Source: Candidatus Woesearchaeota archaeon
Lineage (GTDB): Archaea; Nanobdellota; Nanobdellia; Pacearchaeales; GW2011-AR1
Assembly: GCA_964493885.1 (NCBI GenBank)
Contig: CAZBPV010000001.1
Span: forward strand, 100,703-164,702
Direction of reading: 5' to 3'
Length of the DNA: 64,000 nt
Under the pieces are notes generated by a model that was given only the letters and a program-made list of their open reading frames with translations, was not told where the DNA came from and did not search any database. Below are positions 29,720 to 46,059 of the stretch, piece by piece; position 1 is the first letter of the stretch, and every line of letters starts with the position of its first letter. The position numbers and the translations under genes were made by a program.

Positions 29720-29953
29720 AGTATGTTATTGTGTTCCCACACTGAAAATCAGAAATTTTCGTAAGGTTCATTTTGCAAATCAAAACGCCCTCATTTGGAT
29801 TTATACGAATGAGTAGGGATTTTGAAAAAACACGCCCCGACCGAGCTTTATAGTAAAATGTTATCCTCAAGGGATTTCTTTATTTTTATTATAATTTGTG
29901 TAGATGTAAGGGATTTTTAAGGGTTATCGACTACCTATGCGTAGTCAATCAAT

Positions 29954-31414: not shown

Positions 31415-31693
31415 TTATTCTTCCTTATACAAAAACATCAAAATAGGCATTAATTTCTTATCTCTCATAATCCCCTTCAGGGCTTCTACCATTTCTTCTT
31501 CATTTCTCCCAAAAATCATCTCATAAGAGAATTTAGATCTTTTCTCTTTTAATTGCTTAAATTCATTAAGAAATTCTGTCTTAAGTTTAATGGTATTCCA
31601 TGCTTGATTGCTCTCGCTATAATGGACTTTTCCCTCTACGCTAATTACTTTCCTTGGAGCAAGAGGCATTTTCTCTTTGGAAGTCATTTGCAT
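31415..31693 (-). CDS. Hypothetical small protein
   Basis: ORF only. Confidence 0.4.
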   Translation of the reverse strand: MQMTSKEKMPLAPRKVISVEGKVHYSESNQAWNTIKLKTEFLNEFKQLKEKRSKFSYEMIFGRNEEEMVEALKGIMRDKKLMPILMFLYKEE

Positions 31694-33257: not shown

Positions 33258-34625
33258 ATGTCAAAAAATATGTGGATTTTAACTGAAGAAAGACCTAAAA
33301 AAGAAGTTTTAAAAAAAATTATAGAAAAATTTTGTTTAGATAGAGGAATTAAAGCTAATTTTTCCACTCTCAGAATAAACCCTCTTATGGATGGTAATAA
33401 GTTTACATTCACTTATGAATTGGAGGGCATTAGTTCAAAAGATATAAATAAATTCTATATAAAGACAGTAAGTGGAAATAGTAGTTTTGTAGATTTTCTT
33501 ATATTCTTTCAAGAAAAAGAACCAATTGAAGGTGAAGAGCCACTTTATGCCATTGAGGAAACAAAAACCGATGATAGTGAATCAAGAAATACTGGGGTTT
33601 ATCAAAGATGTTCTAAATTTGTCTATCTTAACTTTTATTATCCTAATTGTAAGAAGATAATGCTTTATAATTTGAGGGTTATTCAAAAAGATAAACCAAC
33701 ACAAACAAATATATTCGGGACAAGAATGTTATTAACTTTGGGGGTAGAGATATTGGGTAAAAGATTAGATCCAGAAGTTTTCAAAAGATTTGATAATCTT
33801 GAGGATTTAATTAGTTTCAAAGAAGCGATGAGAAAAGCTCCTAAAGGAAATACTCCTATATTCATAACTAAAGATACAAATAGCATTTCTGTATCTGGTA
33901 GGTTATTTAAGGCAGGAGGTTTGAGCCACGATCCTAATATGGGGGCATTATCCTTAATCTGTCAAACTATCCGAAAATTGGGTTGGGATAAAGAAATAAA
34001 AATCATATTACATGGATTATCTCAAAAGAATCTAACTGGAAGAAATAAATTTATTAAAATTGCAAATAAATTGAACATTAAATTAGATGGATTAAATTTA
34101 CCAACAAGTGATTTATCTGAAAAATATTGGCATTACGAAAGAAATTCAGAAAAAATAGGAACTATTTTTGTTCATTTGATTTTAGAAGAATTAAATGGAA
34201 TAAAATCAATATATGAAAATCATGCCGGTTGTGAAAGAGGATATTTATATTGCCCGAGTGGAATTTGTATAGCGATTCATAAGTACATTGAGAATAAAAA
34301 AGAAAATGGAGCAATACCCAAATTGCCTGATTTGATTATCCTTAATGAACCAGAAAGTAGATTATATGAATTTGAGGGAAAAACTTCTGTAAATGTTAAT
34401 GAAGGAATATCGGAGATAAACCTTTTTGGAATTATAGAAAAAGAATATTTAAAGAAATATTACCCCAAATATGCGGTTGAAAGGGGAGTAATTCTATTTG
34501 GAGGTAATGAAGATAGAATCAAGGAAAAAGAAGTAATTTTCTTGATGACTTCTAATGGAAAGATAGTGTTATCTAAAAATACCCCAAAAATTATCTTAGA
34601 CGCTTTGAATAATCTTAATTCTTAA
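33258..34625 (+). CDS. Candidate type II restriction endonuclease (PD-(D/E)XK motifs)
   Basis: SFVDFLIFF...PLYAIEETK (D...ExK) and PDLIILNE...LYEFEGK. The gene is convergent with the Dam-like MTase gene and overlaps it by 11 nt. Confidence 0.45.
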   Translation: MSKNMWILTEERPKKEVLKKIIEKFCLDRGIKANFSTLRINPLMDGNKFTFTYELEGISSKDINKFYIKTVSGNSSFVDFLIFFQEKEPIEGEEPLYAIEETKTDDSESRNTGVYQRCSKFVYLNFYYPNCKKIMLYNLRVIQKDKPTQTNIFGTRMLLTLGVEILGKRLDPEVFKRFDNLEDLISFKEAMRKAPKGNTPIFITKDTNSISVSGRLFKAGGLSHDPNMGALSLICQTIRKLGWDKEIKIILHGLSQKNLTGRNKFIKIANKLNIKLDGLNLPTSDLSEKYWHYERNSEKIGTIFVHLILEELNGIKSIYENHAGCERGYLYCPSGICIAIHKYIENKKENGAIPKLPDLIILNEPESRLYEFEGKTSVNVNEGISEINLFGIIEKEYLKKYYPKYAVERGVILFGGNEDRIKEKEVIFLMTSNGKIVLSKNTPKIILDALNNLNS

Positions 34626-35655
34626 CCTCTACCAAAAACAAAAGTTCTTTAAGATCTTCTTTAAGCCCGCTTCCATTAGAATTACTTTTGTACCTTCTAT
34701 ATTCTTTATGGTAGACTTTAACCTTCCCCTTCTCAGATAATATCCTCTTTATTTCCTCACATGGAATTATCCCTTCACTATTATAACTTAAAAGAATAAA
34801 TTTGCATTTTGCATTTTTTATCAAATCTTCAAAAACCCGTATGCATTTAGAGGAATAACAATAATTTGATTTTTGCTTTTCATAATATCTTAACCCTGTT
34901 TTATTATTTATTATCTCTTTATCCCAAACAGCAATCGTTTCTAATAAATGGTAATTTGTAGCATATTGCCTATTATTATAGGGAGGATCAATATAAAGAA
35001 TATCACAGGATATCTCTTTAATTAATTTATTAGAATCTTCTTTATGGCATTCATGTTTTAATTCACTTTCGATTAATGTTGGGATTTCTAATAACAATGG
35101 TTTAAATTTTCTTGGATCATCGATTTTCATAAATGCCCCATAAGTTCCAGCGATATTTGAGACGGAAGGAACAACCTCTAAAAGAGAACATAATAAGATA
35201 TAAAACTCCTCATCAGTTATCTTTTTACTATCTTTCCATTCTTGAAGTTTATCTCGGATAGCATCTATTTTTTTAGCATTTTCGGAGGAGAAATAATTTC
35301 TAGTATGTTCTTTATCTTCTGTCCCCTCTGGACAATAATTATTATAAATAAAACCTTTCTTTCCATTTAACTCATTAAGAAAAGAGATTACTTTGAAGAT
35401 ATCTGGATTCTTAATATCCTCCGATAACCCTTCAAAAGAAGGAACCTTATTATTACAAATATAAGCTCTTTCAAAAACATAGGAATAAGTCATAAAATCA
35501 TTTGAGATTATTCTAAAACCCTTTTTCTTAAAAAACTTAGAAACGCTTGTAGTTCCGGAAAAAATATCACAGAATATTCCCTTGGGAAGATTATTCTCAG
35601 TAACAACTGAATAAATAAATTCTAAGAGTTTTGATTTATTCCCAATATATCTCAT
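34615..35655 (-). CDS. D12-class (Dam-like) N6-adenine DNA methyltransferase
   Basis: MRYIGNKSKLL start, FCDIFSGTTSV (motif I) and YIDPPYNNRQY (motif IV). Confidence 0.85.
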   Translation of the reverse strand: MRYIGNKSKLLEFIYSVVTENNLPKGIFCDIFSGTTSVSKFFKKKGFRIISNDFMTYSYVFERAYICNNKVPSFEGLSEDIKNPDIFKVISFLNELNGKKGFIYNNYCPEGTEDKEHTRNYFSSENAKKIDAIRDKLQEWKDSKKITDEEFYILLCSLLEVVPSVSNIAGTYGAFMKIDDPRKFKPLLLEIPTLIESELKHECHKEDSNKLIKEISCDILYIDPPYNNRQYATNYHLLETIAVWDKEIINNKTGLRYYEKQKSNYCYSSKCIRVFEDLIKNAKCKFILLSYNSEGIIPCEEIKRILSEKGKVKVYHKEYRRYKSNSNGSGLKEDLKELLFLVEVKN

Positions 35656-36194
35656 TTTTCTTTTTTGAATATTTTAATCTTATCAAACAATTCCTGTATG
35701 CTCTTTAGTTCTTCATCATATAATACATAATTGTCTAAATATCCATTATTCTCTATTCGATTGATTATTAATAAATCTTTTTTGGAAAACCAGCCAAGCA
35801 ATACTCCCTCTTTCCTATCGGGATACAATCTTACAGAAATATAAATATCTTTAGGTTTCTTCCTAAATTGCTCTACCATCTCCAGAGTTCTTGTATGAAA
35901 CTCCTGTGTTCTAGTCTTAATATCTATTGTTGATTTGTCAGGTAAGATGAAATCATATGAATCGGGATCTTTATGACTTGTTTTATCTTCTTCAAAGTTA
36001 ATATTATTCTCTATCAGAAACATTTTGAATATTTTTTCACCAAGTTTTCCTTCGAACATCTTTCTCTGTTTAGCATCCAAACCTCCCTCATGAAAATCAT
36101 GTCGATTAGAAGTAAATTTTTTTGAAATAATGGCGTAAATCCACGCTTCTTTAATTAGTTCATCTGAAATTTTATATATTTTTCTTAGAATCAT
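35652..36194 (-). CDS. Small PD-(D/E)XK-like nuclease candidate, the R subunit between two MTase genes
   Basis: DPDSYDFILPDKSTIDIKTRT (D...D-x-K). Coding overlaps with both flanking MTase genes. Confidence 0.4.
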   Translation of the reverse strand: MILRKIYKISDELIKEAWIYAIISKKFTSNRHDFHEGGLDAKQRKMFEGKLGEKIFKMFLIENNINFEEDKTSHKDPDSYDFILPDKSTIDIKTRTQEFHTRTLEMVEQFRKKPKDIYISVRLYPDRKEGVLLGWFSKKDLLIINRIENNGYLDNYVLYDEELKSIQELFDKIKIFKKEK

Positions 36195-37161
36195 CTTCTT
36201 CTTTCCTAAATATCAGAATATATTGGTGAAGTTGATTAGCAACAAAAGAGAAAGGATATCCATAAGGATAGAGATTTAATGTTTTATCATACCAGATTTT
36301 ATATCCTTTAAATTGAAGTCCATCAATTTTTGAAAGACTTGAGACTATATCTGCATGTAAAAGGTTATGATGGTTCTTACTTGGTTGCATATCTTTACAA
36401 AATACTACAAGATAACCTCTATTCTTTAAAAATTTTAATGATTTTTTTATAATTATTTCAAACTCCCCAAAAAATTCTTCATAACCGATATTCCCTAAAT
36501 CTCTTTCGTCCTCTGTAAAGTTGCCTTTATCTTTTCTATCCCCCCCCGTTCTCTTTTTAGAAAGCATATTAGCATAGGGAGGATCTGTTAAGATTAAATC
36601 AAATTCATGAGAGATAACCTCCGGGATTTTATCAAGATTCCTCGCATCTTGTTTTATTGTGATCTGTTGTTTTAATCCTTCTTGATTAGCTACTTTTTTA
36701 TAAACTTCTAAATAATTTTGTTCTAAATCTATGCCGACAGCATGTCTTATGGGATCACATAAAGAAGCTCCTAATAATGTTCCTCCTACACCTACAAATG
36801 GGTCTAAAACCCATCCATCTGCTTTTGTAAAAAATCTAATTAGATCCCTCATTAGAGTAGGGGGTTTTGGAGATGGATGAATCTTCCTAAGTTTATGTCC
36901 TACCGAATCCTTTCCATTAGTAGTATAATGGGTAGGGATTATAGAATCCTGCAAGAATTTCCAAAGTTCAAGTTCATCTTCATTTGAGGCAAAATCTGTT
37001 TCCATAATAGAGTTTATAAAATGAGTCCATTCTTTACCAGTTAAATCATTTAATTTATTTCGAATATCATATGTTCCCCTTTGTCCCAAATCTCTTCCAT
37101 ATTTCTTAACTTTAGGAGCACCTTCAATTAATCTCTTTAATTCCTCTTTTATCATAAACAA
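36172..37161 (-). CDS. N6/N4 DNA methyltransferase (motif I before DPPY), containing a G8 homopolymer
   Basis: VLDPFVGVGGT (motif I) and LILTDPPYANM (motif IV). The C8/G8 run at 36540..36547 encodes TGGD. Confidence 0.8.
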   Translation of the reverse strand: MFMIKEELKRLIEGAPKVKKYGRDLGQRGTYDIRNKLNDLTGKEWTHFINSIMETDFASNEDELELWKFLQDSIIPTHYTTNGKDSVGHKLRKIHPSPKPPTLMRDLIRFFTKADGWVLDPFVGVGGTLLGASLCDPIRHAVGIDLEQNYLEVYKKVANQEGLKQQITIKQDARNLDKIPEVISHEFDLILTDPPYANMLSKKRTGGDRKDKGNFTEDERDLGNIGYEEFFGEFEIIIKKSLKFLKNRGYLVVFCKDMQPSKNHHNLLHADIVSSLSKIDGLQFKGYKIWYDKTLNLYPYGYPFSFVANQLHQYILIFRKEEDDSKKNI

Positions 37162-37303: not shown

Positions 37304-40300
37304 CTAGTTTTTAGCGGTTTTTATAATCTTATCTAAATTAGTCTTTAGGTATCTTAAATCGATGGTTTTTCCAAATCTAGAATAATTTTTTACCTTATTT
37401 CTATTGGTTACAACAAAAAACCATTCATCATAGCCTTGATTTAATAATTCTATTTTAGTTTTCAAGTGATTTACATTAGAAAGTACTGCTCCGGTTTCTA
37501 CTTCTATGGCTTGTCTTTTATTATTCAAGATAAATATTACATCTGCAGTTTTAGTTAAAGAAATTTGTGCATTAATCTTATTTTTATTTAGATAGTTCGC
37601 AATATCATGCATCACGAAGAAATGTTTTTCAGATTCCTTAAATCTAGGTTTTAGCAAATAGTATTCTTCTTTTTCAGAATTAATGCTTTTCTGTTTAGAG
37701 ATTACATAGTTCTTAGCTAGAAGATATTTCACCTCATTTTCATTCAAATCCTTTTTTCTAAAGAATCTTTGACTTTCATCAACCTTAATATCTATTCTTT
37801 TAGCAAGTTCTTTCTTCTTTTTTTGGGCTTTCTTTTTTTGCTTTAATTCGGGTTTTTTTACTTCGATTTTAGATTCTGTCTCAAGTATCTTAATCTCCTT
37901 TACTTCTTCAACCGGATTTTTATCTTCTTTCACTATTTTTTCTGTATCTATTACCCTTTCAATCGGCTTTTTTCCATTAGCCAAAATCTCATCAGCATTA
38001 GTTGTGATTAAATCATGTTCTTTTTTAGAGGCAATTATCTTTAAGTTAGAATGCTCATCTTCAATAATCAAAATTCCCTCCCCCAACAATGCAGTCAAAA
38101 GAGCTATCCTTTCTGAGCTACTCAAATGGAATACTTTTTGAATGTCATCTATAACCGCAGGTTTTTGCTTTAATAAGATAGTATAGGAGCTATTTGCTAA
38201 AACAGATCTCCCTGCTTTAGAATTTAGCATATCTTCTACTTCTTGATTAATTAAGAATAAACCTAGATTAAACTTCCTGCAGGTTTTAACTATTTCAAAG
38301 ATATAAGACGCTTCATGGGTTTTGCTTAATAAGGACCAAGCCTCATCTATTACTAACAATTTCCTCTCTAAATCTCCCTTCATCTTAGTATAAACATAAT
38401 CTAAAACAAGGAACATCATAATCGGTTTTACTTGTTTTGGGAGATTTCCGATATCCACACATACAAATTTATTATTAAAATCTATTTTTGTATGCTTATT
38501 TAGGAAAGAGAATACTCCCGTAACATAGAGATTTAATCTATTCATTAAACTCCTTATTGTAGTCTTTTCTAGGCTAGTTGCTTTTTTTTCGATATTTTCT
38601 AGGATCTTCAGGAGATCGCTTAAAATCGGGGGCTCGTTGCCCCAAGAATCCCTATCATTCATATATATCCCTTTTCTTTCATAAGTTTCTGTTAAAGCCT
38701 TATCCAAGATAGCTTTTTGAGGCTCAGATATATCTCCTAACATAACAGGCATTAAATCCATTAAAGTAAGCCTTTTCTCGGGATAATCATGTCCCATTAA
38801 ATCTAAAGGATTAATTATAGTATTTGAGGTTCTGCTTAAATCTATTAATTGCCCATTAAATTTCTTTACTAGGTTTTTGTATTCTCCCTGAGGATCTATC
38901 ACAATAACTTTATTCCCATTAAGGAGATACCTCGAAATGAATAATTTAGCCATATAGCTCTTTCCTGCTCCAGAACTAGCTAAACAAATGCCATTTGCAT
39001 TAGAAAGTTTGAATATATCCCGAATTATTGGAATCTTATTTTTATTTAATCCAAACCATATTCCAGTATCATCAATCTTAAGGAAAGAAGATGTAAAAGG
39101 AAAAAACGCAGACAATCCTGTCGTAGTGATATTTCTCCTCATATTTATAGAATCTTGATTAAGAGGCAGGCAAGATTTAAACCCTTGAATCATTCTAAAA
39201 TCTGCTTGCTTAGGAATTATTAATAGAGAATTAAGCTCCGACTCTACTTTTTTAGTAAGCAAATCTAACTCTTTTTCTGTATCTGCCTTGCAATTAATAT
39301 ATAAACTAACATTAAACAACTTCTCATTTCCTTTTTGGAGATTCTCTAATGTCTTTAAAGTATCTTTATATTGAATTTGAAGGCTTGGGTTTAACTGGTT
39401 TTTAATCTTAGCTGAATACAAATCTGCCCTTTGTTTTTGTAGTTCTTTATTTAATATAATCATAGTTTGCTCTAGAAGTAATGGTTCGATATGCAATGAA
39501 AGATTAAAGTCTCCTAAGGAACTCACAATTTTATCCAAAAAACCAGATTCAACGATTCTAGGATAACCATGAGCATAGATTGTCCTACTGAACTTATCAT
39601 TTATTTTAACATGAGAGGGTTTATTCTCAATCTTTTCTGGCAGATAAGTATCTTTATTGCTAATATTAAACAATTGCGTTAAAAGAGCAGTTAATTGTTT
39701 ATTATGCAATCTCTGTGTTCTTAGGTTTAAACCATTCAGTCTTTCCTCGCAAATCTTTATTTGTATATCAATATCTGTTTTTTCAGGAATTACAACATAA
39801 AAATTCCTATTTGAAACGCTATTTTCACTTATTATCTCTTGCATATGCGTTTTATATTCTTCAAATATCTCTTTAGAGTGTTCATTATTTATCCTAGATT
39901 CCAAACTCTTGAAATAATCTTTTATGCTTAGATTCTCCGTAGTCATTAAAATTTGAATAGGAAAATCCAAGGAATTAAGAAATTTCTGAAATGCTAATGT
40001 TATAGTTTCCTGTTCTTTTTCTGGTTTAATTTGAAAGTTAATAGAATCTATTTTTAACACCGCTAATTTTTCTTTTTGAGTAAAGATTAGATTATCATCT
40101 ATCTTCTTAATTGCAAAAAATTGCTCTATCTTTTCTTTAAGGTTCATTTCTCTTAATCTATACCATGTAATCCACTTTTTGAGTTTAGATCCTAAATCAA
40201 AGAATATGAATCCAATTCCTAAAAGACAAGGGAATAAGGCAAAGATAAATCTTACATAAATATTTACCCCCCATTTAAAGAAGATTAAAAAGGAGATTGG

Positions 40301-40390
40301 AAAGAATACAAAAGCATAAGCTAGTTGGCTAAATGTTAAGCCAAACACTATTTTCTCTTTATATTCTAGTTGTTGAGGTATTTCGTACAT
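37304..40390 (-). CDS. Fusion protein: PrgI/VirB3-like N-terminus, VirB4/TrbE-type ATPase, and a C-terminal PD-(D/E)XK-like domain
   Basis: MYEIPQQLEYKEKIVFGLTFSQL plus 2 TM helices. Walker A is GICLASSGAGKSY and Walker B is LLVIDEAW. The C-terminus reads SEKHFFVMHD...ADVIFILNNKRQAIEVETG. Confidence 0.7.
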   Translation of the reverse strand: MYEIPQQLEYKEKIVFGLTFSQLAYAFVFFPISFLIFFKWGVNIYVRFIFALFPCLLGIGFIFFDLGSKLKKWITWYRLREMNLKEKIEQFFAIKKIDDNLIFTQKEKLAVLKIDSINFQIKPEKEQETITLAFQKFLNSLDFPIQILMTTENLSIKDYFKSLESRINNEHSKEIFEEYKTHMQEIISENSVSNRNFYVVIPEKTDIDIQIKICEERLNGLNLRTQRLHNKQLTALLTQLFNISNKDTYLPEKIENKPSHVKINDKFSRTIYAHGYPRIVESGFLDKIVSSLGDFNLSLHIEPLLLEQTMIILNKELQKQRADLYSAKIKNQLNPSLQIQYKDTLKTLENLQKGNEKLFNVSLYINCKADTEKELDLLTKKVESELNSLLIIPKQADFRMIQGFKSCLPLNQDSINMRRNITTTGLSAFFPFTSSFLKIDDTGIWFGLNKNKIPIIRDIFKLSNANGICLASSGAGKSYMAKLFISRYLLNGNKVIVIDPQGEYKNLVKKFNGQLIDLSRTSNTIINPLDLMGHDYPEKRLTLMDLMPVMLGDISEPQKAILDKALTETYERKGIYMNDRDSWGNEPPILSDLLKILENIEKKATSLEKTTIRSLMNRLNLYVTGVFSFLNKHTKIDFNNKFVCVDIGNLPKQVKPIMMFLVLDYVYTKMKGDLERKLLVIDEAWSLLSKTHEASYIFEIVKTCRKFNLGLFLINQEVEDMLNSKAGRSVLANSSYTILLKQKPAVIDDIQKVFHLSSSERIALLTALLGEGILIIEDEHSNLKIIASKKEHDLITTNADEILANGKKPIERVIDTEKIVKEDKNPVEEVKEIKILETESKIEVKKPELKQKKKAQKKKKELAKRIDIKVDESQRFFRKKDLNENEVKYLLAKNYVISKQKSINSEKEEYYLLKPRFKESEKHFFVMHDIANYLNKNKINAQISLTKTADVIFILNNKRQAIEVETGAVLSNVNHLKTKIELLNQGYDEWFFVVTNRNKVKNYSRFGKTIDLRYLKTNLDKIIKTAKN

Positions 40391-40391
40391 C

Positions 40392-41204
40392 TTATTTCAT
40401 TAAATTAACCATTTGTTTTAATTTATTGACTTTAAGTGCAGCTTTTACAATTACAAAAAGCAGTAGAAGTGCTGTTGAGATAATTATCATATCTAAAGTT
40501 CCGACCATTATCATTGTCTTAAAATCCCTAAAAGCAGACAACTCAGATATTTTAGAGCCTATGAGAAACATAATTGAATAAAAGAAAGGTAGAAAAATCA
40601 AGGTGCATAATCCATTGATGATTAATCTTCCATATTGGTTTAAGGGAGAGAAAAAATAAAAGAAAATTCCTATTGCAAAAAATATAACCCCCGAACTAAC
40701 AGAGATATATCTTAATAAGAGAAGAACTAAAACAACGATTAAGTGAATTAAATAAAGAATCCCAAAGACTAAATCAAATCCAAAATTGTAATAATGACTT
40801 AGTGTTAATTGAAAGAAATTGTTTCCGACTAAATTTAATATTGTCTTTGTTAGTGCAGAGGAGATTGCAATAATTAAGTCATAAAGGTGGTAGCTTCCTT
40901 GAACAAGAATCATCATGATGATTATACTCTTTAAATCTCCTTTTGCCTCTGTTCTTTTTTCAGGAGATTCTGCAGAAACTATAAATTTCAATCCGATCCA
41001 TACTAAAAGCAATCCATAAAACATTGAGAGAATATAAACAATAATTCCCCAAATGCTTGCAAATACTGAAATATTGACTGGTTCTGATAAAAACTTATGA
41101 ACAAGATTAAGAAAAGGAGTGCATGCTAAATTGATTGCATCAAGAATAAACTCAAAGAGAGTCTCAACTATGCATGCCCCTAAATTTGTCAAACTGCATT
41201 CCAT
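40392..41204 (-). CDS. Polytopic membrane protein in the VirB6/TrbL (CedA/TedA-like) position
   Basis: At least 6 hydrophobic helices. There is a 1-nt gap to the ATPase gene. The assignment rests on context only. Confidence 0.4.
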   Translation of the reverse strand: MECSLTNLGACIVETLFEFILDAINLACTPFLNLVHKFLSEPVNISVFASIWGIIVYILSMFYGLLLVWIGLKFIVSAESPEKRTEAKGDLKSIIIMMILVQGSYHLYDLIIAISSALTKTILNLVGNNFFQLTLSHYYNFGFDLVFGILYLIHLIVVLVLLLLRYISVSSGVIFFAIGIFFYFFSPLNQYGRLIINGLCTLIFLPFFYSIMFLIGSKISELSAFRDFKTMIMVGTLDMIIISTALLLLFVIVKAALKVNKLKQMVNLMK

Positions 41205-41205
41205 T

Positions 41206-41529
41206 TTAACCCAGTATTAGATTAACTACAAAAGGAGCTGCCCAAATAACCATCAATCCAATAATCACATACATAATCATATTCTTTGCGTTCTCTCTTT
41301 TCATTGGATCTGCCCCACTTGTGATGTAGGTTATTCCTGCAAAAAGCATCACTATTCCTGCGATGATAGTAGCAGAATACTTAACTAAGTTATAGACAGT
41401 AGTCAATGGTTGCAAAATCTCTGAAAAATTGTCTGAAGCACTAACCAAGACAAGCTGAACTATCAGCAAAGCCAAAAATCCCAAAATAACTACTATTCTC
41501 TTATCTCCTCTGCATTCTTTATATGACAT
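41206..41529 (-). CDS. VirB2/TrbC-pilin-like small protein
   Basis: Signal-like N-terminus VVILGFLALLIVQLVLVSA followed by two hydrophobic helices separated by SGADPMKRENAKN. A GGAGG sits 6 nt upstream of the ATG. Confidence 0.45.
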   Translation of the reverse strand: MSYKECRGDKRIVVILGFLALLIVQLVLVSASDNFSEILQPLTTVYNLVKYSATIIAGIVMLFAGITYITSGADPMKRENAKNMIMYVIIGLMVIWAAPFVVNLILG

Positions 41530-41648
41530 TTTAACCTCCTTTCAAGTTCTTTAAAATCTGGGTATTTTCTTCTCAAAACTTCCAAACAACTATAACAAAA
41601 ATATTTTTCATATATTCTCAATATAGCATTACATAAAAGGCATTTCAT
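41493..41648 (-). CDS. Small zinc-finger ORF (51 aa), not in the track; candidate first gene of the transfer operon
   Basis: Hand translation gives MKCLLCNAILRIYEKYFCYSCLEVLRRKYPDFKELERRLKCHIKNAEEIRE, with CxxC...CxxC. A TATA-like TTTAATTTATAAT lies about 29-32 nt upstream. Confidence 0.3.
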   Translation of the reverse strand: MKCLLCNAILRIYEKYFCYSCLEVLRRKYPDFKELERRLKCHIKNAEEIRE

Positions 41649-41768: not shown

Positions 41769-41891
41769 ATGATAGAAAAAGATATTGGGGAGGAAATTAT
41801 TCTGAAACTGAAACAATTGATTAGAGAATTGGAAAAATTAAGGGATATTCATGAAAAAAAACTCGCATATTCACATAGTGATAGAAACTGA
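41769..41891 (+). CDS. Possible 40-aa helical ORF
   Basis: MIEKDIGEEIILKLKQLIRELEKLRDIHEKKLAYSHSDRN. A TATA-like TTATAAAG lies about 28 nt upstream. It overlaps the next ORF out of frame. Confidence 0.2.
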   Translation: MIEKDIGEEIILKLKQLIRELEKLRDIHEKKLAYSHSDRN

Positions 41892-42054
41892 ATATATAGA
41901 TAAGTTAAGGAAAGAGGCAGAAGAAAAAGGGGTGACTCTTTCCGAGTTATGCAGACAGAAATTAAGATGTTTTACCCAATTGGATAAGATAGAAACAATG
42001 CTTGAAAAATTTTGCAAAGATGGAAAAGAATATTCCCTTAAACCAAATAATTAA
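41851..42054 (+). CDS. Ribbon-helix-helix (CopG/Arc-like) protein, a possible controller for the downstream methyltransferase
   Basis: SHIHIVIETEYIDKLRKEAEEKGVTLSELCRQKL fits a strand-helix-helix pattern. Confidence 0.5.
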   Translation: MKKNSHIHIVIETEYIDKLRKEAEEKGVTLSELCRQKLRCFTQLDKIETMLEKFCKDGKEYSLKPNN

Positions 42055-42673
42055 AGGAGATTGTATAGAATTTTTGAAAACTCTCCCCAATAATTGTATT
42101 AACCTGATTATTACGGATCCTCCTTATGGTGACAATGTGGCTTATGGTTGGAACAATAAAACAATAAAAAATAATGAGAATCCTTTAATTTGCTGTCAGG
42201 CTTTAGCAGAATGCTATCGGGTTCTGAAACAAAACTCCTCTCTTTATACTTTTACTAACTGGAAACACTACCCTTTCCTAGTGGAATTCATAACAAGATA
42301 CACTAAATTCAGAATAAGGCATTTAATTGTCTGGAAAAAACATAACTTTGGACTAGGATGGGCATTTAGGCATCAATATGAGCTAATTCTCGTTTTAGAA
42401 AAAGGTAAGCCCAAGTATAATTTAACTAATTTCTCCGATGTTCAAACTTGCAGTCATATTAATCATAACAAGGAAAATCACCCTCATGAAAAGCCGATTG
42501 ATTTAATCCATAAGATGATAGAACATAGCTCAAAGAAGGGAGATTTAATTCTAGATCCTTTTTGTGGAAGTGGGGCTGTTTGTTTAGCTTGCCAGCAGGC
42601 AAATAGGGATTTTATTGGAGTTGAGTTAGATAAGAGATATGTTGAGATGGCTCGAGAGAGGGTTAAGTTTTAA
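42020..42673 (+). CDS. Beta-class N6/N4 DNA methyltransferase (DPPY before FxGxG)
   Basis: LIITDPPYG (motif IV) is N-terminal and ILDPFCGSGAV (motif I) is C-terminal. The start is set at the ATG at 42020. Confidence 0.85.
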   Translation: MEKNIPLNQIIKGDCIEFLKTLPNNCINLIITDPPYGDNVAYGWNNKTIKNNENPLICCQALAECYRVLKQNSSLYTFTNWKHYPFLVEFITRYTKFRIRHLIVWKKHNFGLGWAFRHQYELILVLEKGKPKYNLTNFSDVQTCSHINHNKENHPHEKPIDLIHKMIEHSSKKGDLILDPFCGSGAVCLACQQANRDFIGVELDKRYVEMARERVKF

Positions 42674-44669
42674 GAGGATTACTTCCTTTTTCTTTAGCTA
42701 ATCGAATAACCACAGAACGTTCAGTCAATTTTTTCGCAGTATTTAAGTCTTCAACTAATTTCTCCTTTTCTAGTCTTAATTTAGAATCTAAGAATTCATA
42801 AGCCATATCAAATTCATCAAAAATATCACACCACCTTTTAACATATATCTTAAAACTACCTACAGAATAAGCTAAGTTAGGTTCACCATGATTCTTGTTA
42901 CTTTCTATTTGTCCTCCAATAAATCCTTCATCATCAAAATTATTCCCTATTAAAATAAAATCCCATTTAGCATGATTAGATTTAAACTCGGGTTGTTGGA
43001 GTATCATCATCCTATATTTATCTACTTGAAGGTATTCTTTTGAACCTAATTTGACTTTGGGACTTTTTAATTCGACTAAGACATTTTTAATAACATCTCT
43101 TTCTTTTCTTCGCTTACATAGAAAAAGATCTAATCTTTTTTTTCGATATTCTTCTATTTTTATCTCTGGTTTTTTGGACTCCCCATCTAATATCCAAAGA
43201 TAATTTTCTAAGGATTTTTGAAATCCTTCATCTTCAGAAACAAGATTATATTGCTCACCAAAAATCCAATAATTATTAGCTATAATTTTTTGAAGATGAT
43301 CTCTTTCATTGGCATTCAATTCTTTTTCAAAAACCAATTTCTTTAAACATTCAATAACCCTAAATCTTTCAGTTAGAAGATTTATTGTTTTTATAATCCT
43401 CCCCATCTTAGTATATTGCAAAACTCCTTGTAACTCAGTTCTTTCTTGTGGGGTTAATTTAACAATTTGATCGATTATATCTAATACTCTCTCTCTTTCA
43501 TCAGAATCTAAGACTAAATCTAAAAAACCCATAAAAATTTTTCTCTGATCAGGTTTTAAATCCTTAAATACAATTGGATGAATCTCATAAATCTCCTTTA
43601 TCACTTCTTTTAAATCCTCATTTTTTATTTTCTCAAAACTATCTTCAACATCTTTTTTTATTATTCCTTCATCCTCTAATTGAATTATTAATTTGTCAGA
43701 ATTTTCTTTTAATAAAGGCTTTCTTTTTTGTAAAAGATAATTATAAATCTCGCTATGTATTTCCTTAAAAATCTTATCATTCCTTGTTAGTCCCATCAAC
43801 GCTTTCTGAGAATCTTCTTTGGAATGAAAATTAAAATCTTTAAAATATTTATTGGCTATATAGATGCTTGGATAGAAAAAATCCCCTTGTCTATTAAATG
43901 AGCTGTATTCTTTATAGATTTCATTTAATTCAGAATCTAAATAATATATTTTAGATCCTTCTTCATTTATTGAATCCTTCCATCGTATATATTTAACCTT
44001 AAATGATTCTTTTTCTCCAGTGGGATTGATTTTAAACTCATCTTTTTCGGCAATTATACTGGAATAATCTAGTTCTTTATTATTTAAAGTTATTTTATAA
44101 TTTTTATTTTTATTCAATTCTAAGAACCATCCAAATTCTTTTTTTAGATATTCCTGCAATTCCTTAATTAAATTATCTTTGTTTACCTCTTTTAAAAAAC
44201 CTTCAAAAATTACATTTGTACCTAAAGGATTCTTACTTTCTTTGGGAGAATCATTTTCATAATTTTGTATATCATTCGATCCTATCTTTATTACATATTT
44301 CATATTCTTATCCTTATCTAAGTAAATTGTTTCCCATCTAACTCTACAAGCAAATTTAAAGAAAGTAAGTCTACCATACCCATTTCTACCATGTAATCTT
44401 GAATGATGAAAATCATCTTCATCTTCTTTGTGAGAATCATAAAAAGGCTTGAATTTTTTTGTAAGCTGAGTATAATCTATGCCAGATCCGTTATCCTTAA
44501 TTTCTAATTTCTGGAGGATTCCACCATTAAAGCCACAGACAATTTCTACATTATCTGCTCCAGCATCAAAACCATTCCAGATATATTCAGAAACAGCCCT
44601 ACAAAAATTATATTTATTTAAAACCTTTCTAATTCCTTTAGAACTAATCTCAACTTTTTCTTTCATCAT
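42663..44669 (-). CDS. GHKL/MORC-like ATPase fused to a Shedu (DUF4263)-like PD-(D/E)XK nuclease domain
   Basis: The N-terminus has AVSEYIWNGFDAGADNVEI (N box) and IKDNGSGID (G1 box). The C-terminus has NNYWIFGEQY...KKRLDLFLCKRR...NVLVELKSPKVKL...LQVDKY. Confidence 0.55.
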   Translation of the reverse strand: MMKEKVEISSKGIRKVLNKYNFCRAVSEYIWNGFDAGADNVEIVCGFNGGILQKLEIKDNGSGIDYTQLTKKFKPFYDSHKEDEDDFHHSRLHGRNGYGRLTFFKFACRVRWETIYLDKDKNMKYVIKIGSNDIQNYENDSPKESKNPLGTNVIFEGFLKEVNKDNLIKELQEYLKKEFGWFLELNKNKNYKITLNNKELDYSSIIAEKDEFKINPTGEKESFKVKYIRWKDSINEEGSKIYYLDSELNEIYKEYSSFNRQGDFFYPSIYIANKYFKDFNFHSKEDSQKALMGLTRNDKIFKEIHSEIYNYLLQKRKPLLKENSDKLIIQLEDEGIIKKDVEDSFEKIKNEDLKEVIKEIYEIHPIVFKDLKPDQRKIFMGFLDLVLDSDERERVLDIIDQIVKLTPQERTELQGVLQYTKMGRIIKTINLLTERFRVIECLKKLVFEKELNANERDHLQKIIANNYWIFGEQYNLVSEDEGFQKSLENYLWILDGESKKPEIKIEEYRKKRLDLFLCKRRKERDVIKNVLVELKSPKVKLGSKEYLQVDKYRMMILQQPEFKSNHAKWDFILIGNNFDDEGFIGGQIESNKNHGEPNLAYSVGSFKIYVKRWCDIFDEFDMAYEFLDSKLRLEKEKLVEDLNTAKKLTERSVVIRLAKEKGSNPLKT

Positions 44670-45863: not shown

Positions 45864-45946
45864 ATTCTTTTTTAAGCCTATGTTTTTTATAACATATATG
45901 GCTCGAAGTTGTCATAAAATCCCATCAAAATAACAAAATACTAAAA

Positions 45947-46059
45947 CGCCCCAACCGGGAGTCGAACCCGGATCGCATCCGTTCTGCGAATCTGAAACCA
46001 TATTTGAAGGGTTTCATTCTCGCGACAGGGATGAGTCATAGCCGCTAGACCATTGAGGC
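45947..46059 (-). tRNA. tRNA-Asp (GUC) with a 41-nt intron at or next to the canonical position in the anticodon loop
   Basis: Hand fold: acceptor GCCTCAA/TTGGGGC with discriminator G, anticodon stem CATCC/GGATG, loop CTGTC(G/A)C, T-arm CCGGG-TTCGACT-CCCGG. The intron contains a TGAAACC/GGTTTCA hairpin. Total is 113 nt, made of 72 plus 41. Confidence 0.75.

What the first reader, a model, noticed from the sequence alone, without database searches (positions are those of the whole stretch)
37304..41648. Minimal VirB2/VirB6/VirB3-VirB4-like DNA-transfer module whose ATPase carries an extra C-terminal nuclease-like domain
Four co-directional, tightly packed genes sit on the minus strand. The gaps at 40391 and 41205 are 1 nt each.

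1. A 51-aa CxxC...CxxC ORF that is absent from the ORF track.
2. A 107-aa protein with a signal-like N-terminus and two hydrophobic helices separated by SGADPMKRENAKN. This is VirB2/TrbC pilin-like topology.
3. A 270-aa polytopic membrane protein in the VirB6/TrbL position.
4. A 1028-aa fusion protein. Its parts are a PrgI/VirB3-like N-terminus (MYEIPQQLEYKEKIVFGLTFSQL plus 2 TM helices), a VirB4-type ATPase (GAGKSY, and VIDEAW which is characteristic of VirB4/TrbE), a Lys-rich linker, and a roughly 150-aa tail. The tail (SEKHFFVMHD...ADVIFIL...QAIEVETG) looks like a PD-(D/E)XK, Hjc/YraN-like fold.

I can recognise no relaxase, VirD4-type coupling protein, VirB11 or replication initiator anywhere in the element. 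The triad parallels the archaeal Ced/Ted DNA-import and conjugation machinery, which is established to combine a VirB4/HerA-like ATPase, a polytopic membrane protein and small VirB2-like proteins. I cannot match the VirB3-VirB4-nuclease fusion in a DPANN-like host to a described system. The nuclease-like tail could substitute for a relaxase or process incoming DNA.
Basis: partly seen in the sequence, partly recalled or inferred. Interest (0 to 1): 0.85.

Follow-up and report, generated by a model that had tools for sequence, protein, structure and literature searches.

The report
DPANN integrated element: VirB4 fused to nuclease
A tiny symbiotic archaeon carries a ~16-kb element inserted in a tRNA gene that encodes a stripped-down DNA-transfer machine, and the motor ATPase of that machine has a conserved DNA-cutting-type domain fused to its end, which may explain how archaea prepare DNA for transfer without a relaxase.

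Summary
Four tightly packed minus-strand genes encode:
- a conserved 51-aa Zn-ribbon protein
- a VirB2/TrbC pilin (Pfam hits above cut-off)
- a VirB6-like polytopic protein: its N-terminal hairpin is homologous to the pilin (HHalign 95%), and its top four PDB fold matches are all TrwI/VirB6, though with weak E-values
- a 1028-aa VirB3-VirB4 ATPase of the monoderm (CD1110 / Mycoplasma-ICE) type

The ATPase's last ~160 residues are a confidently modelled (pLDDT 94) PD-(D/E)xK-fold domain. Its H, PD, ExE, K and Y positions are nearly invariant across 150 diverged clusters.

New findings:
- The module lies inside a tRNA-Asp-integrated, integrase-bearing element of about 16 kb (about 29.8-46.0 kb). 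The tRNA-Asp has an intron and was missed by the tRNA finders.
- Relatives show exact att repeats in two loci.
- The element has type II R-M cargo. No relaxase, coupling protein, VirB11 or Rep was found.
- The same nuclease domain also occurs on its own, directly after the same integrase family, in VirB4-less mini-elements, and as membrane-anchored versions.

Best reading: an ICE-like archaeal conjugation or DNA-transfer module in Nanoarchaeota (Pace-/Woesearchaeota) whose nuclease domain acts as the DNA-processing (relaxase-analogous) enzyme. That role is inferred, not shown. I found no description of it in the searchable literature.

The parts
37304..40390 (-). 1028-aa VirB3-VirB4-nuclease fusion protein (whole gene including stop)
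   Evidence: ORF. NCBIfam VirB4_plasma 1.5e-95 and CD1110 1.2e-94. Pfam P-loop_TraG, DUF87 and AAA_10 above cut-off. PDB VirB4 4ag5 4e-33. More than 1000 homologs, the best 120 all about 860-1100 aa and, where named, almost all from Nanoarchaeota MAGs.
40151..40390 (-). PrgI/VirB3-like N-terminal segment (aa 1 to ~80) with two hydrophobic helices
   Evidence: Pfam PrgI E 2.3e-4, 22.1 bits, below the 27-bit cut-off, residues 4-77. PF12666 is recorded for many homologs. The Mycoplasma-ICE VirB4 model aligns from residue 4.
38003..40063 (-). VirB4 N-domain plus P-loop ATPase (aa ~110-796). Walker A is ASSGAGKS and Walker B is LLVIDEAW.
   Evidence: Motifs read from the translation. The reference VirB4 models end at about residue 795, so everything after that is extra.
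37781..38002 (-). Lys/Glu-rich low-complexity linker (aa ~797-870)
   Evidence: Sequence. No family match. Length varies among homologs.
37307..37780 (-). C-terminal PD-(D/E)xK-fold nuclease-like domain (aa 871-1028). A small N-terminal beta-alpha-beta-beta subdomain is followed by the alpha-beta-beta-beta-alpha-beta core. Conserved positions: E919, H923, P/A-D950, E963-x-E965-T-G, K979, Y1003.
   Evidence: AF2 pLDDT 93.8, pTM 0.88. Foldseek PDB top list is Cdn1, Hjc, XPF, RecU, VRR-NUC and YaeQ. Foldseek viral top list is endonucleases, REases and PD-(D/E)XK proteins. Near-invariant site over 150 clusters.
40392..41204 (-). 270-aa VirB6/TrbL/CedA-like polytopic membrane protein
   Evidence: AF2 all-helical, pLDDT 82.5. 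The top 4 of 350,542 PDB chains are TrwI/VirB6 of R388 (E 0.05-0.09, prob 0.87-0.97, full length). The N-terminal hairpin is homologous to the pilin: HHalign 95%, E 4e-8, and Pfam T4SS_pilin 1e-5. PF19590 TrbL_3 is recorded for homologs.
41206..41529 (-). 107-aa VirB2/TrbC-type pilin precursor (signal-like N-terminus, two hydrophobic helices)
   Evidence: Pfam T4SS_pilin 1.9e-13 (50.7 bits, cut-off 26.6) and TrbC 2.6e-9 (37.6 bits, cut-off 27.9). NCBIfam Mbov_0395 pilin-like 9.5e-8, below its cut-off.
41493..41648 (-). 51-aa CxxC...CxxC Zn-ribbon protein, first gene of the operon, overlapping the pilin start
   Evidence: ORF. Conserved with the same overlap in L001-L004. The family is present in 34 of 48 full-length loci.
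41769..42673 (+). Divergent, overlapping three-gene unit: 40-aa coiled-coil-like ORF (41769-41891), 67-aa RHH-like protein (41851-42054) and 223-aa N4/N6 DNA methyltransferase (42002-42673)
   Evidence: Pfam N6_N4_Mtase 1.3e-38 and weak NikA-like/ORF56/RelB RHH hits. On the opposite strand in 30 (MTase), 26 (RHH) and 22 (small ORF) of 48 loci.
42663..44669 (-). 668-aa GHKL (HATPase_c_3) protein, element cargo
   Evidence: Pfam HATPase_c_3 3e-16. Homologs found in only 1 of 85 loci, so it is variable cargo. No PADLOC hit.
44718..45863 (-). 381-aa tyrosine recombinase (integrase) of the element
   Evidence: NCBIfam XerA_Arch 1.9e-11, below cut-off. Homologs match at E about 1e-150. The L082 and L003 homologs hit Phage_integrase, 39.3 bits against a 27.1 cut-off. 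Always lies next to a tRNA gene.
45947..46059 (-). Intron-containing tRNA-Asp(GTC). Its 3' end (45944-45961) is the presumed attL.
   Evidence: Found by similarity to the tRNA-Asp genes upstream of the integrase in 8 related loci. Cloverleaf with an insertion after the anticodon loop. Missed by ARAGORN and Rfam.
29830..29845 (-). Candidate degenerate attR (CTCGGTCGGGGCGTGT against attL CCCGGTTGGGGCGTTT)
   Evidence: 3 mismatches in 16, intergenic, and 2 of 500 shuffles do as well. By analogy with the exact 15-nt att pairs in L003 and L045. Probable, not proven.
33258..37161 (.). Restriction-modification cargo directly downstream of VirB4: type II REase (33258-34625, +), Dam-type MTase (34615-35655, -), 180-aa unknown (35652-36194, -) and N4/N6 MTase (36172-37161, -)
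   Evidence: PADLOC REase_II 5.8e-63 and MTase_II 3.8e-98 / 7.7e-84. Pfam. Other loci carry type I R-M or other cargo at the same place.
31415..31693 (-). 92-aa conserved protein of unknown function that lies near the attR end of these elements
   Evidence: Family in 17 of 48 VirB4 loci, on the same strand. It is the last or second-to-last gene before attR in L045 and L003.

Best explanation
The four genes are the transfer (mating-pore) module of an ICE-like element of about 16 kb, integrated into the 3' end of tRNA-Asp in a Nanoarchaeota (Pace-/Woesearchaeota-type DPANN) chromosome.

Proposed mechanism:
1. The VirB2-like pilin is exported and assembled on a VirB6-like membrane platform.
2. 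Assembly and transfer are powered by a membrane-anchored VirB3-VirB4 ATPase.
3. Together these form a minimal archaeal type IV secretion apparatus that moves DNA between cells.
4. A PD-(D/E)xK nuclease domain hangs on a flexible Lys-rich linker from the cytoplasmic end of VirB4. It cuts or nicks the excised element (or other substrate DNA) at the channel entrance. In doing so it takes over the roles that a separate relaxase and coupling protein play in bacteria.

The tyrosine recombinase next to the tRNA excises and integrates the element. The divergent RHH/methyltransferase unit regulates the operon and protects the DNA.

Shown here: gene identities and folds, the conserved active-site-like residues, the integration architecture, and the absence of recognisable relaxase or T4CP.

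Inferred: that the tail is catalytically active, that its substrate is the transferred DNA, and the direction of transfer.
For: Components:
- VirB4 of the monoderm type.
- VirB2 pilin above Pfam cut-offs.
- VirB6-like protein.
- Operon conserved in 34-43 of 48 loci.

Tail:
- pLDDT 93.8 with the canonical alpha-beta-beta-beta-alpha-beta order.
- Fold matches are almost exclusively PD-(D/E)xK nucleases.
- Conservation over 150 clusters that are no more than 50% identical to each other: H923 150, D950 149, E963 149, E965 150, K979 146, Y1003 148.

Mobile-element context:
- tRNA-Asp followed by the integrase in the window and in 8 related loci.
- Exact 15-nt att repeats bracket 20.2 kb (L003) and 14.7 kb (L045), with 0 of 300 shuffles matching.
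- Candidate attR in the window.
- Variable R-M cargo.
- Two to three copies in some genomes.

Link between the tail and element DNA processing:
- In 9 loci the same domain is a separate gene directly after the same integrase family, with no VirB4. One of these (L082) has a probable att pair 6.9 kb apart. This mirrors the bacterial pattern of IME (integrase + relaxase) versus ICE (integrase + relaxase + T4SS).
- One assembly (CAZETU01) holds both kinds.
- Other paralogs are membrane-anchored through their own TM helices and a coiled coil.

Precedent from the literature:
- MOB_C relaxases are PD-(D/E)XK enzymes (PMC12857230).
- No relaxase is known in any archaeal conjugative element (PMC9905601, PMC12857230).
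Against: - There is no biochemical evidence.
- Foldseek E-values for the tail are weak: the best PDB value is 3.7e-3 and none is at or below 1e-3.
- No sequence-level link to MOB_C or any nuclease family was found in Pfam, NCBIfam, PADLOC, PDB or the plasmid collection.
- The motif is ExE rather than ExK.
- The window's attR is degenerate (3 mismatches). Six related loci show no attR within the fetched flanks, so some copies may be fixed or domesticated.
- No T4CP, VirB8, VirB1 or VirB11 was found, so whether three proteins suffice for DNA export is unknown.
- The homologous Ced and Ted systems import rather than export DNA (PMC9905601).
- The related Patescibacteria T4SS has been co-opted for epibiotic growth (PMC12102498).
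Confidence: 0.55

Rival explanations
1. Host-interaction or scavenging apparatus. As in Patescibacteria, the T4SS-like machine serves the episymbiotic lifestyle. The pilus and channel take up host DNA, and the VirB4-tethered nuclease degrades it to feed nucleotide salvage.
For: - DPANN host.
- Patescibacteria carry a relaxase-less MPF_FATA-like T4SS with VirB2 pilins that is essential for epibiotic growth (PMC12102498, PMC12857230).
- A nuclease sits at the cytoplasmic face of the channel.
- Nucleotide-salvage genes are present in the window: thymidylate kinase, dCMP deaminase and pyrimidine 5'-nucleotidase.
Against: - The module sits in a tRNA-integrated, integrase-bearing element with variable cargo and exact att repeats in relatives.
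- It was found in only 137 loci among 185,579 species genomes, and it is multi-copy in some genomes.
- The nuclease domain also pairs with the integrase in elements that have no channel at all.
- The salvage genes lie outside the element.
Confidence: 0.17
2. Ced/Ted-like domesticated DNA importer used for recombinational repair, with the tail processing incoming DNA.
For: - It has the same three-part logic (VirB2-like pilin, VirB6-like channel, VirB4-like ATPase) and lacks a relaxase (PMC9905601).
- Some copies lack a detectable attR.
Against: - The VirB4 is of the monoderm conjugative CD1110/Mycoplasma-ICE type by HMM score. Ced and Ted components share no recognisable sequence similarity even with each other (PMC9905601).
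- Integrase, att sites, R-M cargo and multi-copy occurrence point to a mobile element rather than a housekeeping system.
- The distribution is patchy.
Confidence: 0.1
3. The tail is not the transfer nuclease. It is instead a DNA-binding or anchoring module, an entry-exclusion or restriction-type nuclease acting on foreign DNA, or a recombination accessory factor of the integrase, and it became fused to VirB4 secondarily.
For: - It lies adjacent to the integrase in 9 loci.
- It sits in R-M-rich surroundings.
- The motif is ExE instead of canonical ExK.
- PD-(D/E)xK folds are common in defence proteins.
Against: - Near-invariance of four acidic/His residues plus Lys and Tyr over 150 diverged clusters argues for catalysis, not mere binding.
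- No PADLOC defence model matches it.
- Standalone copies are not accompanied by a methyltransferase.
- Independent membrane tethering, by VirB4 fusion or by its own TM anchor, fits action at a translocon.
Confidence: 0.15

Closest known systems
MPF_FA/FATA VirB4 ATPases of monoderm conjugation systems (CD1110 family; Mycoplasma ICE Mbov_0397; PrgJ/TcpF type)
   Same: - Best HMM matches: 318-321 bits over residues 4-795.
- P-loop_TraG, AAA_10 and TraC-like domains, with a VirB3/PrgI-like TM segment at or next to the N-terminus.
- The MPF_FATA class is known to include Archaea (PMC12102498).
   Different: - It scores just below (CD1110: 318 against 325) or far below (Mbov_0397: 321 against 590) the curated equivalog cut-offs.
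- It carries about 230 extra C-terminal residues (linker plus nuclease-fold domain) that lie beyond the end of those models.
- No partner T4CP or relaxase is present.
Ced (Sulfolobales) and Ted (Thermoproteales) DNA-import systems
   Same: - A minimal archaeal triad of VirB2-like pilin, VirB6-like channel whose N-terminus resembles the pilin, and VirB4-like ATPase.
- No relaxase (PMC9905601).
   Different: - Ced and Ted are chromosomal, domesticated importers. This module is inside a tRNA-integrated element with an integrase and cargo.
- No nuclease fusion is reported for CedB or TedB. For those systems HerA-NurA was proposed as the source of ssDNA.
MOB_C relaxases (TraX of pAD1, MobC of CloDF13)
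   Same: - DNA-processing enzymes for conjugation built on a PD-(D/E)XK restriction-endonuclease-like catalytic domain.
- No covalent DNA intermediate is formed (PMC12857230).
   Different: - No detectable sequence similarity.
- MOB_C proteins are free-standing and bacterial, and work with a T4CP.
- Here the domain is fused to VirB4 or membrane-anchored, and the motif is ExE.
Patescibacteria (CPR) type IV secretion system
   Same: - Ultra-small episymbiont host.
- MPF_FATA-related VirB4 with VirB2-like pilins.
- Usually no relaxase (PMC12102498, PMC12857230).
   Different: - The CPR loci are near-universal (about 80% of genomes). In Saccharibacteria they also encode VirB1-, VirB8- and VirD4-like parts and pilin arrays.
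- This system is patchy, element-borne and much smaller, and it has the nuclease fusion.
Archaeal conjugative plasmids and integrated elements (pNOB8-type, pT33-3, thaumarchaeal ICEs)
   Same: - VirB4-containing.
- No relaxase identified.
- Tyrosine-recombinase integration into tRNA genes (PMC9905601, PMC12857230, PMC6563490).
   Different: - Those elements are large (tens to about 100 kb) and usually have a VirD4-like ATPase.
- As far as the searched literature shows, none is reported from DPANN/Nanoarchaeota or with a nuclease-fused VirB4.
Archaeal Holliday-junction resolvase Hjc and CARF-nuclease Cdn1 (PD-(D/E)xK fold)
   Same: - Closest solved folds: Foldseek prob 0.96-1.0.
- The acidic residues lie on alpha1, beta2 and beta3 in the canonical order.
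   Different: - Only 12-22% identity, with E of 3.7e-3 or worse.
- ExE replaces ExK.
- Extra invariant His, Lys and Tyr, and an additional N-terminal subdomain.
- No evidence for junction-specific activity.

Membership tests
VirB4/TraC-type T4SS ATPase | Sequence membership in VirB4 family models | tested here: met
   Pfam P-loop_TraG 87.3 bits (cut-off 25.8), AAA_10 46.2 (27.5) and DUF87 49.9 (23.2). NCBIfam CD1110 318 bits (cut-off 325, just below) and Mbov_0397 320.7 bits (cut-off 590). The sole PDB match is VirB4 4ag5, 4.3e-33. No HerA or FtsK chain matched at E<=0.01.
VirB4/TraC-type T4SS ATPase | Intact Walker A and Walker B motifs | tested here: met
   ASSGAGKS and LLVIDEAW, read from the translation.
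VirB4/TraC-type T4SS ATPase | Membrane association via VirB3 (adjacent gene or fusion) | tested here: inconclusive
   PrgI match of 22.1 bits is below the 27-bit cut-off (E 2.3e-4), residues 4-77. PF12666 is recorded for many homologs. Two hydrophobic helices are visible in the sequence.
VirB4/TraC-type T4SS ATPase | ATP-dependent assembly or translocation activity | not testable with these tools
   Needs biochemistry or genetics.
VirB2/TrbC conjugative pilin | Match to pilin family models above cut-off | tested here: met
   T4SS_pilin 50.7 bits (cut-off 26.6) and TrbC 37.6 bits (cut-off 27.9).
VirB2/TrbC conjugative pilin | Signal-like N-terminus followed by two hydrophobic helices joined by a short polar loop | tested here: met
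   Sequence (…LVLVSASD…; SGADPMKRENAKN loop). Conserved in the 12-member alignment A4. No dedicated TM or signal-peptide predictor was run.
VirB2/TrbC conjugative pilin | Assembles into a lipid-containing pilus | not testable with these tools
   Needs cryo-EM or cryo-ET.
VirB6/TrbL/CedA/TedA channel protein | Polytopic alpha-helical membrane protein encoded next to virB4 | tested here: met
   AF2 model with 7-8 long helices, pLDDT 82.5. Its stop codon lies 1 nt before the VirB4 start, and this adjacency is seen in nearly all full-length loci; the family is present in 43 of 48 loci.
VirB6/TrbL/CedA/TedA channel protein | N-terminal region homologous to the cognate pilin (feature described by Beltran et al. 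2023) | tested here: met
   HHalign A4 against A3: 95% probability, E 4e-8, pilin 46-97 to p270 52-103. Pfam T4SS_pilin 1e-5 on residues 52-100. Pairwise BLASTP alone is not significant.
VirB6/TrbL/CedA/TedA channel protein | Fold or sequence similarity to a solved VirB6 | tested here: inconclusive
   The top 4 Foldseek hits are all TrwI/VirB6 (prob 0.87-0.97), but E is 0.05-0.09 and TM 0.32-0.37. The profile search against PDB sequences found nothing. PF19590 TrbL_3 hits in homologs are only 'faint'.
PD-(D/E)xK nuclease superfamily | alpha-beta-beta-beta-alpha-beta core fold | tested here: met
   DSSP order H61-76, E81-83, E91-95, E98-105, H113-126, E129-134 in a pLDDT 93.8 model. The top fold matches are Hjc, Cdn1, XPF, RecU, VRR-NUC and phage REases, though E-values are 1e-3 or weaker.
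PD-(D/E)xK nuclease superfamily | Catalytic signature: acidic residue on alpha1, (P)D at the start of beta2, (D/E)xK on beta3 | tested here: inconclusive
   E919, (P/A)D950 and E963 occupy the expected elements and are near-invariant. The third motif is E963-x-E965, not ExK, and an invariant K979 lies on the following helix. From memory, ExE variants are known (BamHI); this was not checked here.
PD-(D/E)xK nuclease superfamily | Metal-dependent phosphodiester cleavage | not testable with these tools
   Needs a nuclease assay.
MOB_C relaxase | Sequence homology to TraX or MobC | tested here: not met
   No hit for the tail in Pfam, NCBIfam or PDB. tblastn of the tail against 72,556 plasmids found no match. 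A direct comparison with CloDF13 MobC failed because the record is poorly annotated and frameshifted.
MOB_C relaxase | Site-specific nicking at an oriT, required for transfer | not testable with these tools
   No oriT is defined. Needs experiments.
Integrative and conjugative element (ICE) | Integrase adjacent to an attachment site in a tRNA gene, with direct repeats at both ends | tested here: met
   tRNA-Asp followed by the integrase in the window and 8 loci. Exact 15-nt att pairs in L003 and L045, with 0 of 300 shuffles matching. The window's attR is degenerate, with 2 of 500 shuffles doing as well.
Integrative and conjugative element (ICE) | Encodes a mating-pair-formation system with VirB4 | tested here: met
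Integrative and conjugative element (ICE) | Encodes a relaxase and a type IV coupling protein | tested here: not met
   No such Pfam family among the 49 window ORFs scanned, which include all ORFs of 179 aa or more. No conserved extra ATPase family across the 48 loci. Several ORFs have no family match at all, so a divergent one cannot be excluded.
Integrative and conjugative element (ICE) | Excises and transfers between cells | not testable with these tools
   Needs read-level or experimental evidence.
Ced/Ted DNA-import system | Orthology of the ATPase to CedB or TedB | not tested
The best HMM matches are to bacterial monoderm VirB4 families.

The most novel reading that the evidence does not exclude
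The C-terminal PD-(D/E)xK domain is the long-missing archaeal counterpart of the conjugative relaxase. It is fused to VirB4, so one polypeptide combines the DNA-nicking, substrate-coupling and motor functions. The 'integrase + free nuclease' mini-elements are the first archaeal mobilisable elements (IME analogues), and they parasitise the VirB4-nuclease elements.
Probability: 0.3. Interest if true: 0.88.

Novelty: new variant of a known kind. Interest (0 to 1): 0.72.

Why it matters
How archaea prepare DNA for conjugation is an open question. No relaxase has been recognised in any archaeal plasmid, ICE, or Ced/Ted system (PMC9905601, PMC12857230). A strictly conserved nuclease-fold domain welded to the transfer ATPase, and otherwise found next to the element's integrase, gives a concrete and testable candidate for that missing step.

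It also documents ICE-like, tRNA-targeting mobile elements carrying R-M cargo in Nanoarchaeota (DPANN). Horizontal gene flow, host dependence and cell-cell contact are central to the biology of this group and are poorly understood. Finally, it defines perhaps the smallest pilin-containing T4SS gene set seen so far.

Tried and rejected
- **Sequence searches for the tail.** Pfam, NCBIfam, a PDB profile search, PADLOC and tblastn against plasmids gave nothing significant. Only fold comparison was informative.
- **Direct comparison with a MOB_C relaxase.** The CloDF13 record is incompletely annotated and its ORFs look frameshifted, so I abandoned this.
- **Generic direct-repeat search of 28-48.5 kb for att sites.** It returned only short AT-rich chance matches. 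The att logic emerged only after tRNA genes were seen next to the integrase in related loci.
- **Exact or <=3-mismatch 18-mer search for attR.** It found only attL itself. A 16-mer scan found one candidate.
- **tRNA finders.** ARAGORN and Rfam missed the intron-containing tRNA-Asp.
- **Pairwise BLASTP of pilin against p270.** Not significant. A profile-profile comparison was needed.
- **AF2 on a p270 alignment built from locus ORFs.** I repeated it with database homologs.
- **PDB profile searches.** The p270 search found nothing. The pilin search gave only spurious TM-protein hits (RNase K).
- **IMG/VR scan for the tail domain.** No relatives found, so a viral origin is rejected.
- **R-M pair idea (tail plus the divergent MTase).** Rejected as a general explanation, because standalone tail genes lack an accompanying MTase.
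- **'wHTH' label for the first ~50 residues of the tail.** Dropped, because the model shows beta-alpha-beta-beta, not a classical winged helix.

Full report
**Observation.** Two 1-nt intergenic gaps are present, and the 51-aa ORF overlaps the pilin start by 37 nt. The window is AT-rich (about 30% GC) throughout, with no compositional break at the locus.

**Host.** The host is an archaeon of the DPANN group.
- Nearly all named close homologs of the large protein come from Nanoarchaeota, Pacearchaeota or Woesearchaeota MAGs.
- The rest of the window encodes archaeal housekeeping genes: ThrRS with the archaea-specific editing domain, aIF2-gamma, aIF5B, SerRS and ribosomal protein S10.

**The ATPase.**
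- Residues 4-795 align end to end with NCBIfam's Mycoplasma-ICE VirB4 model (320.7 bits), and residues 112-777 align with the CD1110 VirB4 family (318 bits, cut-off 325).
- Pfam P-loop_TraG, AAA_10 and DUF87 score above their cut-offs.
- The only PDB sequence match is the VirB4 of Thermoanaerobacter (4ag5, 4e-33). The 'HerA/FtsK instead of VirB4' refutation therefore fails.
- The N-terminal 80 residues give a weak PrgI/VirB3 match (22 bits, below the cut-off). Many homologs carry PF12666. VirB3-VirB4 fusion is therefore likely but only moderately supported.
- The reference VirB4 models end at about residue 795. Beyond that lie a Lys/Glu-rich linker and a ~160-residue domain.

**The tail.**
- It is present in 118 of the 120 best homologs at 33-56% identity.
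- An alignment-based AlphaFold model is very confident (pLDDT 93.8, pTM 0.88). It shows a small beta-alpha-beta-beta subdomain followed by the alpha-beta-beta-beta-alpha-beta order typical of PD-(D/E)xK nucleases.
- Foldseek finds no PDB match at E <= 1e-3. Even so, PD-(D/E)xK nucleases make up most of the top of the list, with Foldseek probability up to 1.0: Cdn1, Hjc from four species, XPF, RecU, VRR-NUC, YaeQ and BspD6I.
- The viral structure library returns phage 'endonuclease', 'restriction endonuclease', 'PD-(D/E)XK' and 'VRR-NUC' proteins.
- The conserved residues fall where the catalytic residues of the fold belong: E919 before helix 1, (P/A)D950 at the start of strand 2, and E963-x-E965 at the end of strand 3.
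- Across 150 representative clusters, each no more than 50% identical to the others, conservation is H923 150/150, D950 149, E963 149, E965 150, G967 150, K979 146 and Y1003 148.
- The motif is therefore PD...ExE, with the Lys displaced onto the next helix. It is not the canonical ExK. Such strict conservation argues for catalysis, but the chemistry remains unproven.

**The other three genes.**
- The 107-aa protein is a VirB2/TrbC pilin by Pfam: T4SS_pilin 50.7 bits and TrbC 37.6 bits, both above cut-off.
- The 270-aa protein has few relatives (183, all about 260-300 aa except one 389-aa protein with an extra methyltransferase domain; every named source is Nanoarchaeota-type). It models as a bundle of long helices (pLDDT 82.5).
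- Its four best matches among 350,542 PDB chains are all TrwI/VirB6 of plasmid R388, aligned over the full length (prob 0.87-0.97), though E is only 0.05-0.09.
- Its N-terminal hairpin is homologous to the adjacent pilin (HHalign 95%, E 4e-8). Beltran et al. reported this same feature for CedA/CedA1 and VirB6/VirB2 (PMC9905601).
- The 51-aa CxxC...CxxC ORF is a real gene. It is conserved, with the same overlap onto the pilin start, in every locus I inspected, and its family occurs in 34 of 48 loci.

**Conserved neighbourhood.** A genome-wide scan with the tail profile found 137 loci among 185,579 species-representative genomes. Essentially all are Nanoarchaeota-type MAGs, and several assemblies hold two or three copies. 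Clustering all ORFs of 85 loci gave the following counts among the 48 loci with a full-length VirB4-tail:

| Family | Loci (of 48) | Strand relative to VirB4 |
|---|---|---|
| VirB6-like | 43 | same |
| pilin | 39 | same |
| Zn-ribbon | 34 | same |
| N4/N6 DNA methyltransferase | 30 | opposite |
| RHH protein | 26 | opposite |
| ~45-aa ORF | 22 | opposite |
| ~385-aa protein, 2-8 kb upstream | 15 | same |

- An optional secreted, C-terminally anchored protein of ~127 or ~449 aa sits between the pilin and VirB6-like genes in 29 loci. The window lacks it, so the window holds the minimal version.
- No further conserved ATPase, relaxase or VirB8/VirB1-like family appeared.
- Pfam scans of 49 window ORFs, including every ORF of 179 aa or more, found no relaxase, T4CP, VirB11 or Rep.

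**Mobile-element context (new).**
- The ~385-aa protein is a divergent tyrosine recombinase: XerA-like at 1.9e-11, and its homologs reach Pfam Phage_integrase above cut-off.
- In related loci it lies immediately downstream of a tRNA gene. That gene is tRNA-Asp(GTC) in eight VirB4 loci, and tRNA-Ser, tRNA-Gly or tRNA-Gln in others.
- The window has the same arrangement. An intron-containing tRNA-Asp(GTC) lies at 45947-46059 (-), directly upstream of the integrase. ARAGORN and Rfam both missed it.
- In L003 and L045 the last 15 nt of the tRNA are repeated exactly 20.2 kb and 14.7 kb downstream (0 of 300 shuffles). The repeats bracket the integrase, the divergent MTase unit, the transfer operon and variable cargo.
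- The window has one candidate attR at 29830-29845: 3 mismatches in 16, intergenic, and 2 of 500 shuffles do as well. This implies an element of about 16.1 kb.
- Cargo differs between loci. The window carries a type II R-M set and a GHKL ATPase. Other loci carry type I R-M or a Dcm/MutH-like pair.
- The element family was not found on IMG/VR viral contigs.

**The nuclease domain outside VirB4 (new).** An exhaustive profile search found 714 clusters of the domain. Of the 150 best, 121 have no VirB4 part. They fall into two groups.
- Free ~165-220-aa proteins.
- ~260-376-aa proteins with one or two N-terminal TM helices and a coiled-coil or Lys-rich linker. These are a second, independent way of tethering the domain to the membrane.

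In nine loci the free form is encoded directly after, or overlapping, the same integrase family, with no VirB4 nearby. One such mini-element (L082) begins at a tRNA-Gly and has a probable att repeat 6.9 kb away. One assembly carries both a mini-element and a full VirB4-tail system.

**Interpretation.** The domain's two partners are an integrase and a transfer ATPase. This matches the bacterial pattern in which mobilisable elements carry integrase + relaxase and ICEs carry integrase + relaxase + T4SS. Several other facts point the same way.
- The domain has a nuclease fold with a conserved active-site-like cluster.
- It sits at the cytoplasmic end of VirB4 on a flexible linker.
- No relaxase or coupling protein is present.

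The most economical mechanism is that it cuts or nicks the element's DNA at the channel and so substitutes for a relaxase.

There is precedent. MOB_C relaxases are PD-(D/E)XK enzymes that form no covalent intermediate, and TcpM is a tyrosine-recombinase-like relaxase (PMC12857230).

No sequence link to MOB_C could be shown, so this is functional analogy, not membership. The direction of transfer, the substrate and the catalytic activity are all inferred.

Three alternatives remain open and are scored as rivals: uptake and degradation of host DNA (Patescibacteria-like co-option), Ced/Ted-like import for repair, and a defence or accessory role for the tail.

**Novelty.** VirB4 genes in DPANN MAGs are already auto-annotated ('DUF87', 'VirB4-like, CD1110 family'). 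VirB4-like domains have also been noted in the giant SPEARE proteins of nanohaloarchaea (PMC10266531).

Six full-text searches found no description of any of the following:
- this pilin/VirB6/VirB3-VirB4 operon
- the nuclease fusion
- the tRNA-integrated elements in Nanoarchaeota

Subscription-only literature could not be searched. I rate it a new variant of a known kind (an archaeal ICE-like element or minimal T4SS). Its unusual, testable feature bears on the open question of how archaea process DNA for transfer.

Noticed in passing
window 45947-46059 (-): Intron-containing tRNA-Asp(GTC), with an insertion of about 41 nt after the anticodon loop. ARAGORN (bacterial mode) and Rfam at gathering threshold both missed it. 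It is the integration target of the element.
   Followed up: yes
window 46139-46960 (+): A 273-aa protein with a strong GGDEF diguanylate-cyclase domain (Pfam 2.3e-44) in a DPANN archaeon. It lies just outside the element, between tRNA-Asp and SerRS. From memory, c-di-GMP signalling proteins are unusual in archaea.
   Followed up: no
window 82-4374 (+): A 1430-aa protein whose only match is a He_PIG Ig-like domain. It may be a giant surface adhesin of the kind seen in episymbiotic DPANN.
   Followed up: no
window 33258-37161: Type II R-M cargo directly downstream of VirB4: REase (PADLOC 5.8e-63), a Dam-type MTase, a second N4/N6 MTase, and an overlapping 180-aa ORF with no family match. The whole element carries three DNA methyltransferases.
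   Followed up: partly
window 42663-44669 (-): A 668-aa GHKL (HATPase_c_3, MutL-like N-terminus) protein with a weak HSDR_N-like C-terminal match. It lies between the integrase and the transfer module, has no PADLOC hit, and is found in only this locus among 85. It may be a novel defence gene.
   Followed up: partly
window 29954-31375 (-) and 31415-31693 (-): At the attR-proximal end of the element there is a 473-aa protein with a weak PDDEXK_1 match (E 0.0024). Next to it is a 92-aa protein of a family that recurs near attR in 17 of 48 related elements. Both functions are unknown.
   Followed up: partly
L001 8798-9181; L010 47-1360; 29 of 48 related loci: An optional gene between the pilin and VirB6-like genes. 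It encodes a signal peptide, an 'ATAFNC' motif, an ectodomain (~127-aa or ~449-aa forms) and a C-terminal TM anchor, with no family match. It could be an adhesin or a VirB5-like tip protein. The window lacks it.
   Followed up: partly
P0122, P0129, P0146, P0252; loci L066, L067, L072: Paralogs of the nuclease domain anchored to the membrane by their own N-terminal TM helices and a coiled-coil or Lys-rich linker (about 260-376 aa). Their genomic context contains no integrase or VirB4 homolog within the ORFs inspected.
   Followed up: partly
L013 and L029 (contig JAIORZ010000011.1); L007/L010/L033 (assembly JAAOYJ01): Multiple VirB4-nuclease copies per genome: two full systems 40 kb apart on one contig, each with its own integrase homolog, and three copies in another assembly.
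   Followed up: partly
L011 7901-7996: The last 22 nt of a tRNA-Gln are repeated 74 nt downstream, ahead of an integrase + free-nuclease pair. This may be the scar of an earlier integration or a tandem att site.
   Followed up: no
L036 121-3609: In this short contig the integrase gene is followed directly (1-nt spacing) by the VirB4-nuclease gene, with no pilin or VirB6-like gene in between.
   Followed up: no
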